A stretch of 64,000 nt of DNA, taken from positions 800,001-864,000 of the forward strand of contig JASGJN010000020.1 in NCBI GenBank assembly GCA_049840735.1, written 5' to 3'. The stretch is from Anaeromyxobacter sp. GTDB taxonomy: Bacteria; Myxococcota; Myxococcia; Myxococcales; Anaeromyxobacteraceae. Numbering within the stretch: the first letter of the stretch is position 1; every line of letters starts with the position of its first letter. A program made the position numbers. Shown here piece by piece: positions 15,001 to 24,000 of this stretch.

Positions 15001-18000
15001 TCACCTGCCGGCATTCCCGGGGACCGAGGGGTATCAGAAGGCGCGAACCCTCGTCGGGACGGAACTGTGGTACCGGATGCTCGACGGGCTTCCGAAGCTC
15101 GTCCATACAGCCATGGGCGAGAAGCTGACGGAGATGATGGTTCGCACAGCCATCGCGGAGATCGACGCGGCGTTCAAGAACGTTCAGGAGTGTGCCGGCC
15201 TCATGAACGCGCATGCGGACAACCCGCTCGCGCCTCTGCAACGGGCACTCGCGAAGCGCACGGGCCTTTGGGTAGCGGACGACGCGGTAAACCTCGACCG
15301 GTCGCTCCACGACGAAACCAAGAACCTACTCGCACTGGGTGCTGGCGTCCTGGGGGTCCCGGTGAGCCCCTCGGCAGCGAAGTCGGCCAGCTTCGGCCGT
15401 TAGTAGAAGCGGAGACGTGCTTCCCACTGCAGCGCGGAAGCACGGTCAGATGCTTCCCTCCGAACGGCTTCAAGCGCCCCGGGCCGGTAACGGTAGCTCG
15501 AGCACCGACTGTTGTAATCCTGGACGTACCTGTTGAACGTATCAACCCGGCCATTGTTGGTCACCAGCGGCTTCATGTATCCGATCCGCTCGTCCTCGAA
15601 GATGCAGTAGCGGAGTTCGCTTATCGAGAGTGACCTCCCAGACCCGACGGGCGGCTTCGTTTCCGTGGAATCCGACCTACCGTACGAGGATCGCACCCCG
15701 TCCCCGGAGTTCCCAGAAGAACTCGCCGGAGACGAGTACGACGCGCTGCCGGAGCTCGCGGTGTATCGGCTCGGTTTTGTGCTCGCCGTGTCGCACATCC
15801 AGACCAAAGCCGCGATACCCCCAACGACCCACACCTTGGCAGGGATCGCGCCAAGCAGTGCTGCCAGCCCCCCAGAGCCGTTCGCTGCGGGTCGCGGGGA
15901 TGGGGCCGGGGTCCGCGGTATCGGAGGCGGCGGTGCGCGGGCGGCCCGCTCTGCCGCATCCACGTCAGCAGCAACGTCGGACACCAGGTCAGCGAGCCCA
16001 GAGAAGCCAACGGGATCCGAGGAGCCGCTCATGAGGTCACCTCAACTTCCCTTGCCGCATGAGTTCCGCGAGCAACGCCGCGTTCGAAGGCACGTTCGCC
16101 ATCCTGTCCAGGGTTGCGATGTCGTTGTCTAGGAACTCGACGACGCGGGGGACCTCGGCGAAGACGGCGCGGAGCATCGAGGTCAGCCTCCGAGCGGCCC
16201 ATAGCATCGCATGCTCGTTATGTAGATCGACGGCTGTCGAGCGAACCCGGTTGACGAGCTGGATGCTCGGGGTGTGATCGATCCCCCTCGCCATCGCACT
16301 GAGCTGGATCGGTTGCGCCACCGCGTCCCAGTTTCGTACCACCTGCTCGATGCGTTCGATGAGACGATCGAGGGTTGCCCGCTGTGCTCCCTTCTTCGCC
16401 GCCGAAGTGAGAGCGCCGAGTAGCTGGCCGACGGCCACTGACTCGAGTTCCAGGAACCGCGCCGCATCAACCTCGTACGAGTCAACGAACTGGTCGACGA
16501 GCAACGGCGCATGCTGGCGCCCCTTGCCGGTCGTGCGGTCCACAATCGCGGTCACCGTCTCTACGAGTTGACGGGTCGGCATGCGGTCGAGCGCGGTGCG
16601 CACCGCAGCTACATAGAACCTGCGCTGTTCTGCGATCGCCTCCTCAACGAGGTCCTGCTGCAGAACCTCGGGCATCTCCGCCGCGGCGCGGTCCTCGTTG
16701 ATTGCGTCGAACACCTCCTCAGGATCCGTCTCGTCGTGAGCGGTGGCGAGCGTGACGATCCATTCGACGGCAGCCCCCACGGGCATGGAAGTCGTGGTGA
16801 TCGCCAGAGCAGACGCCGCAAGATTCGCCATCGCCAACGGAGGCAAGCCGTTCGCGCGGACAGCGGAAGCGGTGGCCAGATCGCGGACTAGGTTCGTGCA
16901 ACTCTCTGGATCCACCCCCGGTAGCCAGCTCACCTCAACCGAAACACGCTGCCTCGGGTTGGTGAGATCCGCACGCGCCTTTGCGCACACGTCGGAGTCC
17001 ATCATCAGCGCGCGGTCCTCGGCGAGCTGCATGATGCGGCGGCGACTGTCTCTGGTAGTGGCACCGAGGAGGTGGAAGGGGTTCTCGCGTAGGTTCATGG
17101 CGTCCTGAAGCCGATGGCCGTGGGCTTCGCGTCTTCCTTCGAACGAGATGGAGCGGACTCGAGCGCCGCCTCCAAGCTGCGGAGGTCGATGGTATCGAGG
17201 CCCCGCTTGGCTGCGAGTCTCGCGCCCTCCCGCACCACGAACGCCACATCCGAAAGCGGTCGGCCGACGAGCTTCACCGCAAGAGTTGTGACGTCGACCG
17301 CAATGCCACCTGGGATCCGGGACAGAACACTCGACAGTAGCGACCGGACCTCCAACTCACCTGGCATCCCGACTTCGATGACGTGGTCGAACCTGCCGCG
17401 GCGCAAAATCGCGGGGTCGATCATCTCGATCCTGTTCGTCATCCCGATGACCAGGACGCGGTTCTCGACAGCTTCAGGCATGCGGCGGAGAAACTCCGCA
17501 ACCTCTTCAACGTGATGAAGCCCCTGCCCACCGCCCGCCTGTCGATCCGACAGGAACGACTCCATCTCATCGATCACGATAACCGAGGGCGACGCCTTGA
17601 TCGCGTCGTCGAAGACCTTCGCGATCTTCCTGCCGGTTTCGTGGATGTACGGGCTGCCGATGGTGCTCGAATCGACGGAGAAGCTAGGCCAGCCGAGGTA
17701 CTCGATCAGCCGCTCGATCGCGAACGTCTTTCCCGATCCAGGTGGGCCGTACAACGCAACCGGCGCCGGGAACTGAAGCCCCAGCGGGGCGTAGCGACTC
17801 TCGTTGTCAATCAGGTCGATGACGTGTTCGAGGAAAAAGTTCTCGAGCGCAGCGCGTCCTGGCAGCGTGAATGGCTGACGGGACGGAGAACCGGTGGGGC
17901 CAGCCTTGGGCTGCTTCCCACCACCCTCCGAGCCGGCGTTCACGAGGGTACCGCCGGCGCCGGGAACTGTGTCGGCAGCAGCGAAGCCCGCCGCATCAAG

Positions 18001-21000: not shown

Positions 21001-24000
21001 TGTCCCGAGGTCGATTCCGACGTAGTGCCTCATGCATTCGCCTTCCGAAGGAGCACGGTTCCTGCCCGAACGAGCTGGCTCTCGCCCATGAGGATGGGCT
21101 CGAGCATCTGGTCGATGACGAGTGCATCGTCGGCCGCGAAGTCTCCGAGGTTCAGCGGAGTGACGGCGGCCCCGGGATCGAACGGTTGGTTCTCGACGTT
21201 TACGAGCCGCAACCCTGCGGCATCGAGCGATTCCGTCAGCTTCTTGACGTACCACCGCAACTGGCTCTCGTAGCGAGCCTTCTCGCCGGCATCGAGCCTG
21301 GCGAGCATTCTCACGAACACTCGCGTGAAGCGCCAGGACTCGACAGCCATGTCGATGAGCGCCTTGCGTTCGTTCGAATCGTTCATGGAGCGTCGTCTCT
21401 CCTTGGTCTCGCTCACTCTGGACGCTGCGCTCCTGACTCCGAGAACGCTTCAGCTCATTCGAGAATGATGCGGAAGTCTTTGCCCGCTGTCGAGATCTCG
21501 CCTGCTCCGCGGGAGTGGAGTTTCGACACCAACGTTAGGCCCTGCCACTCCACTTTCGAACTGTGCCGCTGAAATGTGATCGAGGCGACCGGTACTGCTG
21601 CGAGTGCCAGGCCGCCGCACGGGTTAGCTGCATCCGCGCCGCTCGCCTGTGCCACCGCAGGTCCGCGAAATGACGGGCGGATCAGCGGGGCGTCGGCGAT
21701 CGCCGCGCCCGCCGCCGCTGGACACGCCTATCGCTCACATACGCGGTGTCGGCTTCCTCGCCACCTGCAGCAGCGCCTTCGTCTACGCAACGGTGGACGG
21801 CGGTCCGGCGGCGTGGATTAGGCCTTACAGCGGGTCACCGCGGCCGGCTGGCGCGTTACGATGGACACCGCCTCCGCAGTGCCTCGCGGCGGCGCGTTGC
21901 TCATTTTCAAGGCCAACCGCCGGGGGGCCTCGGAGCAATGCACCCGAGTGATCAACGCTCCAGGGCGGCGTCGTTCCTCGCCCGCCCGCGACCACGAGCG
22001 ACGACTAAGAAACCTCTCACTAGATGTAAGTGAGGATCAGGATATCGTCCGGGTCCCAGTGCGCCAGCACGGAGTTCTCTCGAGCGAGTTGCTGCCGCGT
22101 CTTCGCGCCCGAGGCGATCGCTGCCTCGTCCCGCGCCTTGTCCTGAGCCTTCGCGGCGCGGAAGGGCGTCATCGGGCGCGAGGGACCCACGCGACGGCCC
22201 CAGCACGACCAGTCATCTGGAGCAGTAGGGGCCCGCGTGTCGCGGGGTTTCCGGTACGCCATGGTTGATACGTACCACCGGCAAACTCTGCGCGCCACCA
22301 CCCCCGGAACGCCTCGCCGGCTGCGGGCGCCTACCTGGACCGCTCCTGCGGACCCCCGAGCAGCTCCCAGAGGTCCACCCCGATCGCCGCGCTGACCCTC
22401 AGCAGCGTCCGGATGGTCGGGTTGACGGCCCCCTGCTCCAGCCGCTGGTACCGTTTGTAGTCGATGCCGCTGCTTGCGGCGACGGCCTCTTGCGTGAGGT
22501 CCGCCCGCACTCGCGCCGCGCGGATGCGCCGCCCGACTTCCTTGAGGGCCTTCGTCTCGGTGGTCGGCATGCGCCGCCGAGAATCGATGGCTTGGGAAGA
22601 TCAGGACACCGCACTATAATACGGTGCCATGTTCGAATCCGCCCGCGAGTTCTACGAAGCCGACCCGACCGTTCGCACCGTCCGGCTTGGACATTCCCGC
22701 ATCGTCATCCCCGCCGTGAAGCCAGTGAGCGAGGATCTCCCTGACCCGGGATCCCAGCCTTCGCATGTACAACGGCGACCTCATCCGATGCGTCACTGTG
22801 GCCGCCTGGTGTGGCAACGCCGCGGCCCTGCGGGCCCACGACGAGTGGGAGCGAACGATCACGCGCGAGCGCCTGGGTCCCGAGGCCGATCCGCTCCTCG
22901 GCTGGCACGAGCTAGGTTCCCTGGCTCCTGGTGGAGCGGCGCTCGAGGAGTTCGACTTCAGTGCGTGCAACCACTGGATCATCGCCGAGGCGATCCGCGG
23001 CCAGTTCTGGTGGAGGGCCGTCGAGCGGGCGGAGTGGTTTCCGGCGGCTCGAGCGTGCCTGGAGTCAATGAAGGCCCCGCGGCCGATGCCCCGGTCGAGG
23101 CACCGGAGCCGCACAGGTCGACGTCGCCCGGGCGGCGACCGTCGCGACAGGGCACGGTAGCACCGGGCACTCGACTGAAACCGCTTCTCAGCGTTGCCGG
23201 GCGCGTGGCCACCGTCCCGGCCAAGCGACCTCCCCTGCCTTCCTCACGATCTCCCGCGACTCCCCCGTCCCTGGCTCAGTCTTCCGCCTACCCGACTGGC
23301 CTGGGGCCTCCTCACTCTCCACGCCTGACCCGGCCCCGAACTCGTCGCCTGTCTTCAGCTTAGCCACCCCGGCCTTCATCCAAGCACCCGACCACCTCGG
23401 CCCAGCCTTTCTTCCCTTCTTCCTCCCTCTCCCCTCCGACTTCCACAGGCATCCCCTGCTCGCGCCCCAACCCTGCAACTTCCATTTTCTGACACTCCCA
23501 ACACCACCCTCATCCTCCCCCTTCTCCCCTTCTCGTCATCCATCTCTCCACTACCTCACTCCTCATCCATCCTCCAATCCGACCTTCCCTCCGCTTCCTC
23601 CTGTTTCACTCACCACTCACCCCGCTCCGACCCCTTACTCCAAGTCGTCGGGAGTGAGGGGTCGGAGCGGGGTGAGCCATTTCGTGCGCTTATCGCAAGT
23701 CCCGGCATGAGCAGGAACGTCGTGTGTTCTTCAGCGTTTCCCTCATCTGGCCGTCACCCTCGGTGACGCTCAGGGTGCCTACACCCCTGGCAATCCGAAT
23801 CGCCAGGGCTGTAGGCAGGCAAACGCATCCCGCAGTTGCCTGGCGTTCTGCCTGCCTACACCCCCGTTCGACGCAGAGGACGGAGCGCCGGCGGCGAGTT
23901 CGCCGCTTGCGCAACCTCGGTCGAACTTGTCGAGGCAGGCGCGGCGGAGTTCCCATTCTGTGCGCCCATGACTGGTCCCACGCCTCCCTGAACCTCGCAA

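What a model noticed while it worked through the whole genome (the two positions that open the first line are those of the whole stretch)
15403..21386. Mobile Hsp70/mini-GrpE/AAA+ cassette in a defence island
A five-ORF minus-strand cassette (g03871-g03868 plus an uncalled ORF) encodes a self-contained, non-housekeeping Hsp70 machine: a 118-aa mini-GrpE-fold protein, an 832-aa Hsp70 (NBD + beta-rich SBD-like + ~210-aa helical tail), a 473-aa classic-clade AAA+ ATPase with its own N-domain (gene call g03869 is cut short by 191 aa), and a large all-helical protein (~548 aa in most relatives) that is encoded as two ORFs here, as in Anaeromyxobacter terrae. It sits between a Qat system and a serine recombinase at tRNA-Met, and the same cassette recurs in synteny in many unrelated phyla and on plasmids, so it is a horizontally mobile module, proposed to be a new chaperone-based conflict/defence system [...]
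Evidence so far: AF2 of g03871 pLDDT 92; Foldseek PDB top 10 hits all GrpE. Pfam HSP70 3.9e-51 on residues 5-365 only, AAA 2e-29. ORF 8095..9516 of L011 = 473 aa. tblastn on 80 relatives' loci: small protein 80/80, AAA 66/80, helical protein 60/80, same order. 331 stretches in the species-genome collection encode the Hsp70 at ~55-64% identity, across Proteobacteria, Desulfobacterota, Nitrospirota, Chlorobi, Acidobacteriota, Bacteroidota and others. No PADLOC model hits the GrpE-like, Hsp70 or helical proteins. Complex prediction Hsp70-NBD + 2x mini-GrpE: score 0.35 vs best control 0.02, weak support. Defence context elsewhere: of 62 ORFs (>=220 aa) flanking the cassette within 6 kb in 18 relatives' loci, 9 O [...]
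(Added by a program. Inside this text positions count along the whole contig: contig position 800,001 is position 1 of the stretch shown here. "Call 12" and the like, gene names such as g00115 and contig names such as C1 are that model's own, and its searches are not shown. The text may have been shortened before it was handed on; [...] marks where a part breaks off. The agent that wrote the report below was given it as the finding of a first reader that could run no searches.)

Follow-up and report, generated by a model that had tools for sequence, protein, structure and literature searches.

The report
Mobile Hsp70 machine with tagged receptors
A five-gene set that moves between bacteria builds a private chaperone-and-unfoldase machine that is predicted to clip onto swappable cell-envelope proteins through a short shared peptide tag; it often sits among phage-defence genes and may be a new kind of defence, but its function is untested.

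Summary
The five ORFs are real and conserved, but one reading needs correcting. The 210-aa ORF is not half of a split helical gene. It is a separate single-pass membrane protein that starts with a GF(S/A)GLxxL(V/A)S(D/E) tag found on 68 ORFs in 51 of 80 loci.

A complex prediction puts the tag in a groove of the helical protein: score 0.84, best control 0.02; mark reached by 116/157 solved and 2/215 mismatched pairs. Four of five helical proteins fused to their own membrane-plus-outside domain lack a tagged gene and have a decayed groove; a repeat on longer homologues was mixed.

The AAA+ N-domain is a pseudokinase-like fold. The Hsp70 keeps its ATPase motifs but lost DnaK's J-contact arginine. 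The cassette sits in an 18.5-kb element at tRNA-Met here and in Tn7 elsewhere. Its flanks are defence-enriched (36/320 ORFs versus 2/111; control not matched for mobile DNA).

No paper found in nine searches. This scan noted the cassette before on other DNA. Best guess: envelope-surveillance defence (0.5), untested.

The parts
21030..21386 (-). Mini-GrpE-like nucleotide-exchange factor, 118 aa, lacking the long N-terminal helix region
   Evidence: weak Pfam GrpE in 20/51 members; hhalign to GrpE probability 85.7, E 5.5e-6; present in 80/80 loci
18535..21033 (-). Private Hsp70, 832 aa: ATPase domain with intact motifs, ~100-aa beta-rich insert in place of the VLLLD linker, SBD-beta-like domain, long helical tail; Ala at the position of DnaK R167
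   Evidence: Ala in 45/46 rows; role of R167 and the linker from PMC8215388 passages
17095..18516 (-). AAA+ ATPase, 473 aa from a TTG: minimal pseudokinase-like N-domain (about residues 1-180), classic-clade AAA domain with Walker A/B and arginine-finger region intact, C-terminal IGF; start region irregular
   Evidence: pLDDT 87; IGF in 55/61
16037..17098 (-). Helical adaptor, 353 aa (short form): HPD-less four-helix N-terminus resembling a J-domain, helical body with a predicted tag-binding groove (residues 167-179 and 208-260); lacks the tandem-PH tail of most relatives
   Evidence: J-likeness weak (hhalign probability 2)
15400..16032 (-). Separate single-pass membrane protein, 210 aa: N-terminal tag, Pro-rich linker, transmembrane helix (about residues 59-77), outside domain with a conserved Cys pair
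   Evidence: ESM Atlas gives only unnamed clusters
15970..16008 (-). Docking tag (residues 9-21 of the 210-aa protein)
   Evidence: 68 ORFs in 51/80 loci; best hit among 13.3 million positions of the own genome, score 30.9, next 19.3; interface
14051..15403 (+). Convergent 450-aa gene whose N-terminal part resembles the alternative tail of the L008 helical protein; possible accessory, not shown to belong
   Evidence: 24.5% over 110 aa, E 7e-5 in a small database; 4 homologues only
7973..26453 (.). Integrated element of about 18.5 kb carrying Qat, the cassette and a serine recombinase, bounded by 13-bp att cores
   Evidence: Same 13-bp core at 3530, 7973 and 26441
8465..13101 (-). QatABCD defence system (context; qatD is split across two frames)
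24795..26462 (+). Large serine recombinase ending in the att core (context)
26441..26517 (-). tRNA-Met, the integration target (context)

Best explanation
A mobile envelope-surveillance and remodelling machine, most likely defensive against phages or other incoming elements. Step 1 (anatomy shown, role inferred): single-pass membrane proteins display variable outside domains, often cell-wall-binding, and carry a short cytoplasmic tag. Step 2 (predicted, with comparative support): the tag docks in a groove of the helical adaptor and brings it to the membrane. Step 3 (inferred): the adaptor's HPD-less J-like start engages only the cassette's own Hsp70, which is reset by its own mini-GrpE and insulated from host DnaJ. 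Step 4 (inferred): Hsp70 and the pseudokinase-AAA+ use ATP to unfold or take apart a protein complex at that membrane site. My pick for the client is an invader's envelope-spanning structure, such as a genome-injection channel or phage membrane protein. No nuclease or toxin belongs to the core, so protection by disassembly is favoured over cell suicide.
For: Tag on 68 ORFs in 51/80 loci, all on the cassette strand, with a clean score gap (lowest kept 20.4, one weak 14.8, next 2.1 of 6,637 ORFs). 66/68 have a hydrophobic segment; they fall into several unrelated clusters (46, 9, 6, 2 and five singletons) and 34 long tails fall into 11 clusters. Pfam in a hand-picked set of 45 cassette and neighbour proteins: PG_binding_1 in 9, Sel1, SH3_3, TPR. 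Complex prediction of adaptor 1-340 with tag peptide 1-34: score 0.84, best control 0.02; mark reached by 116/157 solved and 2/215 mismatched pairs; runs agree in 100% of contacts; partner pLDDT at least 82. Of 58 complete adaptors, 5 are fused to a membrane segment plus outside domain; 4 of 5 have no tagged gene against 3 of 53 unfused (Fisher p 3.9e-4). Those four carry R, W, R, R at groove position 178, which is L/I/M in 51/51 unfused rows; the fused one that keeps a tagged neighbour has L. Hsp70 and AAA catalytic motifs intact. PADLOC E<=1e-40 in 36/320 flank ORFs versus 2/111 control ORFs, p 0.0015. In L028, L037 and L053 the cassette follows a same-strand gene of a restriction operon after about 50-60 bases and precedes Hachiman. 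Beside RADAR rdrB in E. coli HeN100 and Qat here. No heat-shock promoter enrichment.
Against: No experiment and no identified client or effector. 24 of 42 long loci lack a strong PADLOC hit in their flanks. Mobile elements are defence-rich anyway (PMC8649781 passages) and the control was ordinary chromosome. No PADLOC model matches the core genes. The J-domain call is weak. The out-of-sample groove test was mixed: among 111 longer homologues, the 8 with a membrane segment plus outside domain all kept L178; the 10 with a changed 178 were 7 tail-anchored and 3 unanchored forms (no genomic context). The fusion and groove p-values treat related loci as independent. The window's AAA start is irregular, so this copy may be impaired.
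Confidence: 0.5

Rival explanations
1. [quoted passage not shown]
For: All core parts are chaperone-like with no toxic effector. Mobile chaperone islands at tRNA genes exist and their ClpG gene is sigma32-independent (PMC7685784 passages). HscC works with tail-anchored J-proteins at the membrane (PMC8215388 passages). Some loci lie near metal-efflux or mercury genes.
Against: The Hsp70 has lost the J-contact residue and linker of generalist DnaK. Outside domains are highly variable rather than fixed. No small heat-shock protein, ClpG or DegP was seen among 88 hand-picked neighbours (not a full census). Defence enrichment of the flanks. No sigma32 or CIRCE excess upstream, 2/73 and 0/73, though TLPQC also lacks sigma32 control.
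Confidence: 0.22
2. Protection in bacterium-bacterium conflict: the variable outside domains catch secreted or injected effectors (cell-wall hydrolases, contact toxins, predators) and the chaperone machine neutralises them or repairs the damage.
For: Variable periplasmic tails with PG-binding, Sel1, SH3 and repeat domains, and two tagged paralogues in 17 of 51 loci, resemble polymorphic immunity arrays (recalled, not tested).
Against: No cognate toxin or secretion gene is a fixed neighbour. Neighbours with PADLOC hits are anti-phage systems. The cassette is rare in the predatory host phylum, 4/301.
Confidence: 0.14
3. A helper of the mobile element itself, for example assembling or dismantling a transfer apparatus or excluding entry of related elements.
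For: Always accessory; found on plasmids, Tn7, integrative elements and 7 IMG/VR contigs.
Against: It rides on unrelated vehicles (Tn7, serine and tyrosine integrative elements, a CP4-like island), several without transfer genes; 5 of the 7 plasmids are typed non-mobilizable.
Confidence: 0.1

Closest known systems
DnaK-DnaJ-GrpE with ClpB (housekeeping bi-chaperone)
   Same: Hsp70 with intact ATPase and SBD-beta, a GrpE-like factor, a J-like partner and an AAA+ motor.
   Different: About 100-aa insert and no VLLLD linker; Ala at R167; no HPD; truncated GrpE; single-domain classic-clade AAA with a pseudokinase N-domain instead of ClpB; tagged membrane partners; mobile and patchy.
Specialised Hsp70s HscA-HscB and HscC-DjlB/DjlC (PMC8215388, passages)
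   Same: Dedicated Hsp70 with a private co-chaperone; HscC acts at the membrane through tail-anchored J-proteins; HscA reads one short motif.
   Different: HscC is suggested not to use GrpE and its partners are true J-proteins. Here there is a GrpE-like gene and an AAA+, and the short motif is predicted to bind the adaptor (binding to Hsp70 was not tested).
GAP1-N2 GTPase-centric conflict systems, HSP70/GrpE theme (Kaur et al. 2020, PMC7159879, section 29 read)
   Same: Predicted conflict systems near the membrane with HSP70, GrpE, a DnaJ- or TPR-fused component and wall-binding outside domains.
   Different: Those are built on TRAFAC GTPases, GAP1 and FNIII repeats and occur mainly in actinobacteria and firmicutes. 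None of these is in this cassette, which adds the pseudokinase-AAA+ and the tag.
CoCoNuT Type III Hsp70-like domains (PMC11090510, passages)
   Same: Hsp70-derived parts inside defence loci.
   Different: There they are degenerate ATPases tied to McrBC and proposed to bind RNA. Here the ATPase motifs are intact, a GrpE-like gene is present and McrBC is only an occasional neighbour.
Dionysus (10.1101/2025.09.30.679545, passages)
   Same: Membrane-anchored putative sensor; acts early on a phage membrane structure without killing the cell.
   Different: TerB plus a pore-forming protein; no chaperone, DnaK or AAA mentioned (0 occurrences). Analogy only.
TLPQC / locus of heat resistance (PMC7685784, passages)
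   Same: Mobile island of protein-quality-control genes integrated at tRNA genes.
   Different: Its core is sHsp20-ClpG with FtsH, HtpX and DegP; no private Hsp70/GrpE or tagged receptors.
IetAS and other classic-AAA defence ATPases
   Same: The AAA domain gives weak IetA hits (4e-20; 62 bits against cut-off 510).
   Different: Far below cut-off; no subtilase partner in the core; extra pseudokinase domain.

Membership tests
Hsp70 superfamily | Actin-like ATPase domain with conserved phosphate loops and catalytic Lys/Glu/Asp | tested here: met
   Pfam HSP70 174 bits against cut-off 20.6; [10 protein letters not shown]150, D172, T177 invariant and K70 near-invariant in 46 rows
Hsp70 superfamily | Beta-sandwich substrate-binding domain | tested here: inconclusive
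   Residues about 483-600 align with the SBD-beta of the host DnaK, but no fold or family hit was obtained for that part
Canonical DnaK | NCBIfam prok_dnaK cut-off over the full length | tested here: not met
   174.6 bits against 822.55, ATPase domain only
Canonical DnaK | R167 and VLLLD linker for J-domain docking | tested here: not met
   Ala in 45/46, Ser in 1/46; linker replaced and preceded by an insert
HscA / HscC | HscA family cut-off; true J-protein partner; no GrpE partner | tested here: not met
   HscA 170.9 bits against 708.55; GrpE-like gene adjacent in 80/80 loci; no Pfam DnaJ hit in the adaptor
GrpE | Sequence or profile similarity to GrpE | tested here: met
   Weak but specific: Pfam GrpE top family in 20/51 members; hhalign 85.7 over 57 columns
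GrpE | Nucleotide-exchange activity on the partner Hsp70 | not testable with these tools
   Needs a biochemical assay
J-domain proteins | HPD motif between helices II and III | tested here: not met
   No HPD in the alignments
J-like proteins | Four-helix J-type fold at the N-terminus | tested here: inconclusive
   Helices at 7-10, 19-29, 35-46, 48-57; hhalign probability 2; nearest named Atlas clusters are Arm_PDR/DnaJ at 0.78-0.81, leads only; fold searches did not test residues 1-60 alone
Protein kinase fold (AAA N-domain) | Bilobal kinase-like fold | tested here: met
   All rows shown by Foldseek are kinases, best E 7.7e-4, TM 0.34-0.38; all 50 rows of the wide search are kinase-fold entries, best Z 7.9, rmsd 5.7 over 157 residues; N-lobe rmsd 3.1 over 73. 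Moderate scores.
Active protein kinases | Gly-rich loop, beta-3 Lys, HRD and DFG motifs | tested here: not met
   No conserved Lys at 33-40 and no DFG; only a D113..E118 pair (59/62 each). Motif mapping by eye; canonical motifs recalled.
Classic-clade AAA ATPases | Walker A/B, sensor 1 and arginine-finger region | tested here: met
   Pfam AAA 101.6 bits; motifs conserved in 62 rows; weak hits to FtsH, PAN, CDC48
GAP1-N2 conflict systems | TRAFAC GTPase(s), GAP1 and FNIII-repeat components | tested here: not met
   None among the five core genes or the 45 cassette and neighbour proteins scanned; GAP1 was not searched by name
Known anti-phage systems (PADLOC 2.0, NCBIfam) | Core genes match system models | tested here: not met
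Anti-phage defence system (functional class) | Reduces phage propagation | not testable with these tools
   Context only

The most novel reading that the evidence does not exclude
A new class of bacterial immunity without a nuclease or toxin: interchangeable wall-anchored receptors plug, through one portable peptide tag, into a J-like adaptor that aims a private Hsp70 and a pseudokinase-AAA+ unfoldase at an invader's envelope-spanning machinery and dismantles it. This would be a modular receptor-adaptor-motor pathway that changes specificity by swapping tagged receptors.
Probability: 0.3. Interest if true: 0.92.

Novelty: categorically new. Interest (0 to 1): 0.76.

Why it matters
Whatever its trigger, the cassette defines an undescribed chaperone circuit: an Hsp70 and J-like partner that have both lost the universal HPD/R167 contact, a pseudokinase-headed AAA+ motor, and a portable 13-residue tag that links unrelated membrane proteins to one adaptor. 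If defensive, it would show immunity by ATP-driven disassembly at the envelope. It is directly testable because a complete five-gene copy exists in an E. coli strain, and the predicted tag-groove pair names residues to mutate.

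Tried and rejected
Split or frameshifted helical gene: rejected.

Named family for the adaptor body: none found by Pfam, PDB sequence search (designed helical proteins only), Foldseek (no E<=0.001) or the two VIA searches (best Z 11.2 and 10.4, under the bar for helical bundles). 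The N-terminal 60 residues and the second PH-like unit were not folded alone. PDB sequence searches with the AAA N-domain and GrpE-like profiles found nothing significant.

Profile link between the common PH-PH tail and the convergent gene: not supported (hhalign probability 4; the tail HMM did not list it); only the L008 tail matches.

Heat-shock or SOS control: sigma32, CIRCE, sigma54, sigmaE and LexA-like patterns were not above shuffles in 73 upstream regions (patterns recalled).

Phage-borne origin: no match in 50,697 phage records; 7 IMG/VR contigs carry the cassette but were not shown to be phages. Link to multicellular habit: rare in the host phylum, 4/301. No RNA holder was listed.

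Groove decay as a strict rule for membrane fusions: not upheld out of sample. The tree is the quick version; the careful search did not finish.

Literature: searches listed no paper describing the cassette. Supplements of PMC13069673 and PMC10121019 had no hit for Hsp70 or the E. coli accessions. PMC13092281 had no accession hit, only generic 'Hsp70 family protein' neighbour rows with mildly positive model scores that I could not tie to this family. Subscription papers and bioRxiv supplements were not searchable and could hold it as an unnamed candidate.

Full report
OBSERVATION. The window holds five co-oriented minus-strand ORFs between 15400 and 21386: 118, 832, 473, 353 and 210 aa. ATGA overlaps join the first to the second and the third to the fourth. 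Pfam names only the Hsp70 ATPase domain and the AAA domain. PADLOC and NCBIfam name the neighbouring QatABCD and AbiEii but no cassette gene above cut-off. A 13-bp core occurs at 3530, 7973 and at the 3' end of tRNA-Met, 26441. The cassette, Qat and the serine recombinase therefore lie in one element of about 18.5 kb, the last of a tandem array, with G+C of about 0.60-0.70 against 0.69-0.81 beyond the tRNA.

DISTRIBUTION. The Hsp70 has 331 matching stretches among species genomes; the best 80 were fetched. The small gene is present in 80, the AAA in 66 and the helical gene in 60; 11 of the 14 AAA misses are contig ends. A search with the Hsp70 C-terminal half gave 2,896 clusters at 90% identity among 8,000 candidates scored; the AAA N-domain profile gave 345 clusters at 50%. 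The cassette is in 2 of 24 other genomes of the genus, 4 of 301 of the phylum, 7 plasmids, 2 of 5,426 E. coli genomes, one complete and one remnant, 7 IMG/VR contigs and no phage record. On two plasmids it directly follows tnsABCDE. On a quick tree of 46 Hsp70s, 13 phyla are interleaved and well-supported branches force at least 5 changes for Pseudomonadota. The host keeps its own grpE-dnaK-dnaJ. Mobility is well supported.

CORRECTION: THE FIFTH GENE. The 210-aa ORF has its own ribosome-binding site four bases after the upstream stop. Its family is encoded separately in relatives. The roughly 548-aa adaptors end in a different tail that models as two beta-rich units and matches PH folds (MTMR6 Z 8.8, rmsd 2.6 over 77; FERM C-lobe Z 8.4; IRS-1 PH-PTB Z 8.1 across 357-540). 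Three of 58 complete adaptors are short like the window's.

THE TAG. The 210-aa protein begins with a motif, (K/R)GF(S/A)GLxxL(V/A)S(D/E). A scoring matrix finds it on 68 ORFs in 51 of 80 loci, all on the cassette strand; one further ORF scored weakly (14.8) and was dropped, and the next best of 6,637 ORFs scored 2.1. The matrix was seeded from these same loci, so the count is descriptive; it also finds the motif in the plasmid, E. coli and 6 of 7 IMG/VR loci, which were not seeds. Of the 68, 66 have a hydrophobic segment; beyond the tag they form clusters of 46, 9, 6 and 2 plus five singletons; 38 have a Cys-pair outside domain, and 34 long tails split into 11 clusters that include PG-binding domains and repeats; other tagged proteins carry Sel1, SH3 or TPR domains. 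Seventeen loci hold two tagged genes.

WHAT THE TAG BINDS. Five adaptors are fused to a membrane segment plus outside domain. Four of them have no tagged gene, against 3 of 53 unfused (Fisher p 3.9e-4). A distant plasmid variant fuses everything into one 841-aa protein and has no tag. This suggested that the tag replaces a covalent link. The complex prediction agrees: adaptor 1-340 with peptide 1-34 scored 0.84 against a best control of 0.02; the mark was reached by 116 of 157 solved and 2 of 215 mismatched pairs (roughly, as my own alignments were used); runs agreed in 100% of contacts and partner pLDDT was at least 82. The closest contacts are tag residues 8-20 with adaptor 171-179, 212-222 and 253-256. 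No solved relative of either chain was found, so a pass from memory is unlikely. As an independent check, 14 core groove positions are more conserved than the rest (0.74 against 0.62) and decay in the four tagless fusions (p 0.001); position 178 is L/I/M in 51 of 51 unfused rows but R, W, R, R in those four. Against this, among 111 of 120 longer homologues without context, the 8 with a membrane segment plus outside domain kept L178, while 7 tail-anchored and 3 unanchored forms changed it. Binding is predicted and well supported, not shown; Hsp70 and AAA were not tested as binders.

THE MOTORS. The Hsp70 keeps its phosphate-loop and catalytic residues. Aligned with the host DnaK it has an insert of about 100 residues where the linker lies, an SBD-beta-like stretch, and Ala (45 of 46) at the arginine of RIINEP. 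PMC8215388 (passages) states that the HPD motif contacts R167 and the linker. The adaptor has no HPD; its first four helices fit a shortened J-domain, but profile support is weak. The matched losses suggest a private pair; this is inference. The small protein is GrpE-like. The AAA N-domain models at pLDDT 87 and returns only kinase folds while lacking the catalytic Lys and DFG: a pseudokinase-like module, probably for binding. The AAA motifs are intact and 55 of 61 end in IGF. In the window the AAA start is irregular; qatD and a DnaK paralogue on C17 are also split, so an assembly error is plausible but unproven.

CONTEXT. From the 42 loci of at least 19 kb, 349 flanking ORFs of at least 180 aa were reduced to 320 non-redundant ones. 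Counting from the outputs, 36 have a PADLOC hit at E<=1e-40 (14, 15 and 7), 34 after dropping a sigma54-activator and an ankyrin cross-hit, spread over 18 of 42 loci. They include restriction systems, CBASS, Hachiman and AbiE. Of 111 ORFs from 20 fixed positions in five of the same genomes and the host, 2 hit, both ABC-ATPase cross-hits; p 0.0015 uncurated. The control is not matched for mobile DNA, and Tn7 cargo is known to be defence-rich (PMC8649781 passages). ORF calls were mechanical. Heat-shock promoter patterns are not enriched.

MECHANISM AND RIVALS. Shown: gene content, the tag, membrane segments, domain folds, mobility and enrichment over chromosome background. Predicted: tag-adaptor binding. 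Inferred: adaptor-Hsp70 coupling, GrpE exchange, unfolding by the AAA, and the nature of the trigger. I favour envelope surveillance against phages or incoming elements with disassembly of the invader's complex (0.5), over abiotic proteostasis (0.22), interbacterial protection (0.14) and element housekeeping (0.10).

COMPARISON AND NOVELTY. It works like a specialised Hsp70 system (HscA, HscC) joined to an AAA+ unfoldase, and is thematically close to the HSP70/GrpE theme of GAP1-N2 systems (PMC7159879, passages and section 29). It fails membership of each. CoCoNuT Hsp70 domains (PMC11090510 passages), Dionysus (passages) and TLPQC (PMC7685784 passages) are analogies only. Nine literature searches and three supplement searches found no description (89-91). 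This scan has noted the cassette in other genomes, some notes mentioning tagged envelope proteins; those are unchecked notes that I saw only as short summaries, after my own reading was formed. Those summaries did not mention the tag's predicted partner, the fusion and groove tests or the pseudokinase fold.

Noticed in passing
window 3530, 7973, 26441: Three copies of one 13-bp att core; the first two share about 40 further bases and follow recombinase remnants, so at least three elements are stacked at tRNA-Met. The middle one (3530-7973) carries an AbiE toxin-antitoxin pair (3755-5310).
   Followed up: partly
window 8465-9223 (-): qatD matches the model only over residues 3-157; the rest lies in another frame (ORF 8566-8955). 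Frameshift or assembly error.
   Followed up: no
window 14051-15403 (+): Convergent 450-aa gene, stop overlapping the cassette's last stop, with an N-terminal part like the L008 adaptor tail; only 4 homologues found. It may supply the tail that this short adaptor lacks.
   Followed up: partly
P0079, P0104, P0112, P0122, P0136, P0145: A family of about 380-aa proteins made of two tandem copies of the pseudokinase-like domain with no AAA domain; context unknown.
   Followed up: no
L083:7927-13365 (Aminobacter plasmid): Distant three-gene form: 841-aa adaptor fused to membrane segment, Cys-pair and wall-binding-like domains, then mini-GrpE and Hsp70; no tag, and no pseudokinase-AAA seen next to it.
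   Followed up: partly
L018, L025, L054, L064, L067 adaptor N-termini: A subgroup of adaptors (about 670 aa) carries an extra N-terminal CxxC..CxxC zinc-ribbon module.
   Followed up: no
L006, L014, L020, L052 adaptor C-termini: Alternative tail of extra helices plus a small membrane-anchored domain instead of the PH pair; the adaptor tail is a swappable slot.
   Followed up: partly
L081:12541-24167, L082:10541-22293: Extended version with about six more genes (second tagged protein, RDD protein) as Tn7 cargo; similar gene runs occur in L025, L026, L031, L035, L041 and L050.
   Followed up: no
L022:1500-4517: A Tubulin_2 protein lies upstream of the cassette in one Paraburkholderia locus, recalling tubulin-containing conflict systems.
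   Followed up: no
G000: The host genome holds about ten Hsp70-like loci, some with PilZ-type N-terminal extensions; two appear split by frameshifts.
   Followed up: no
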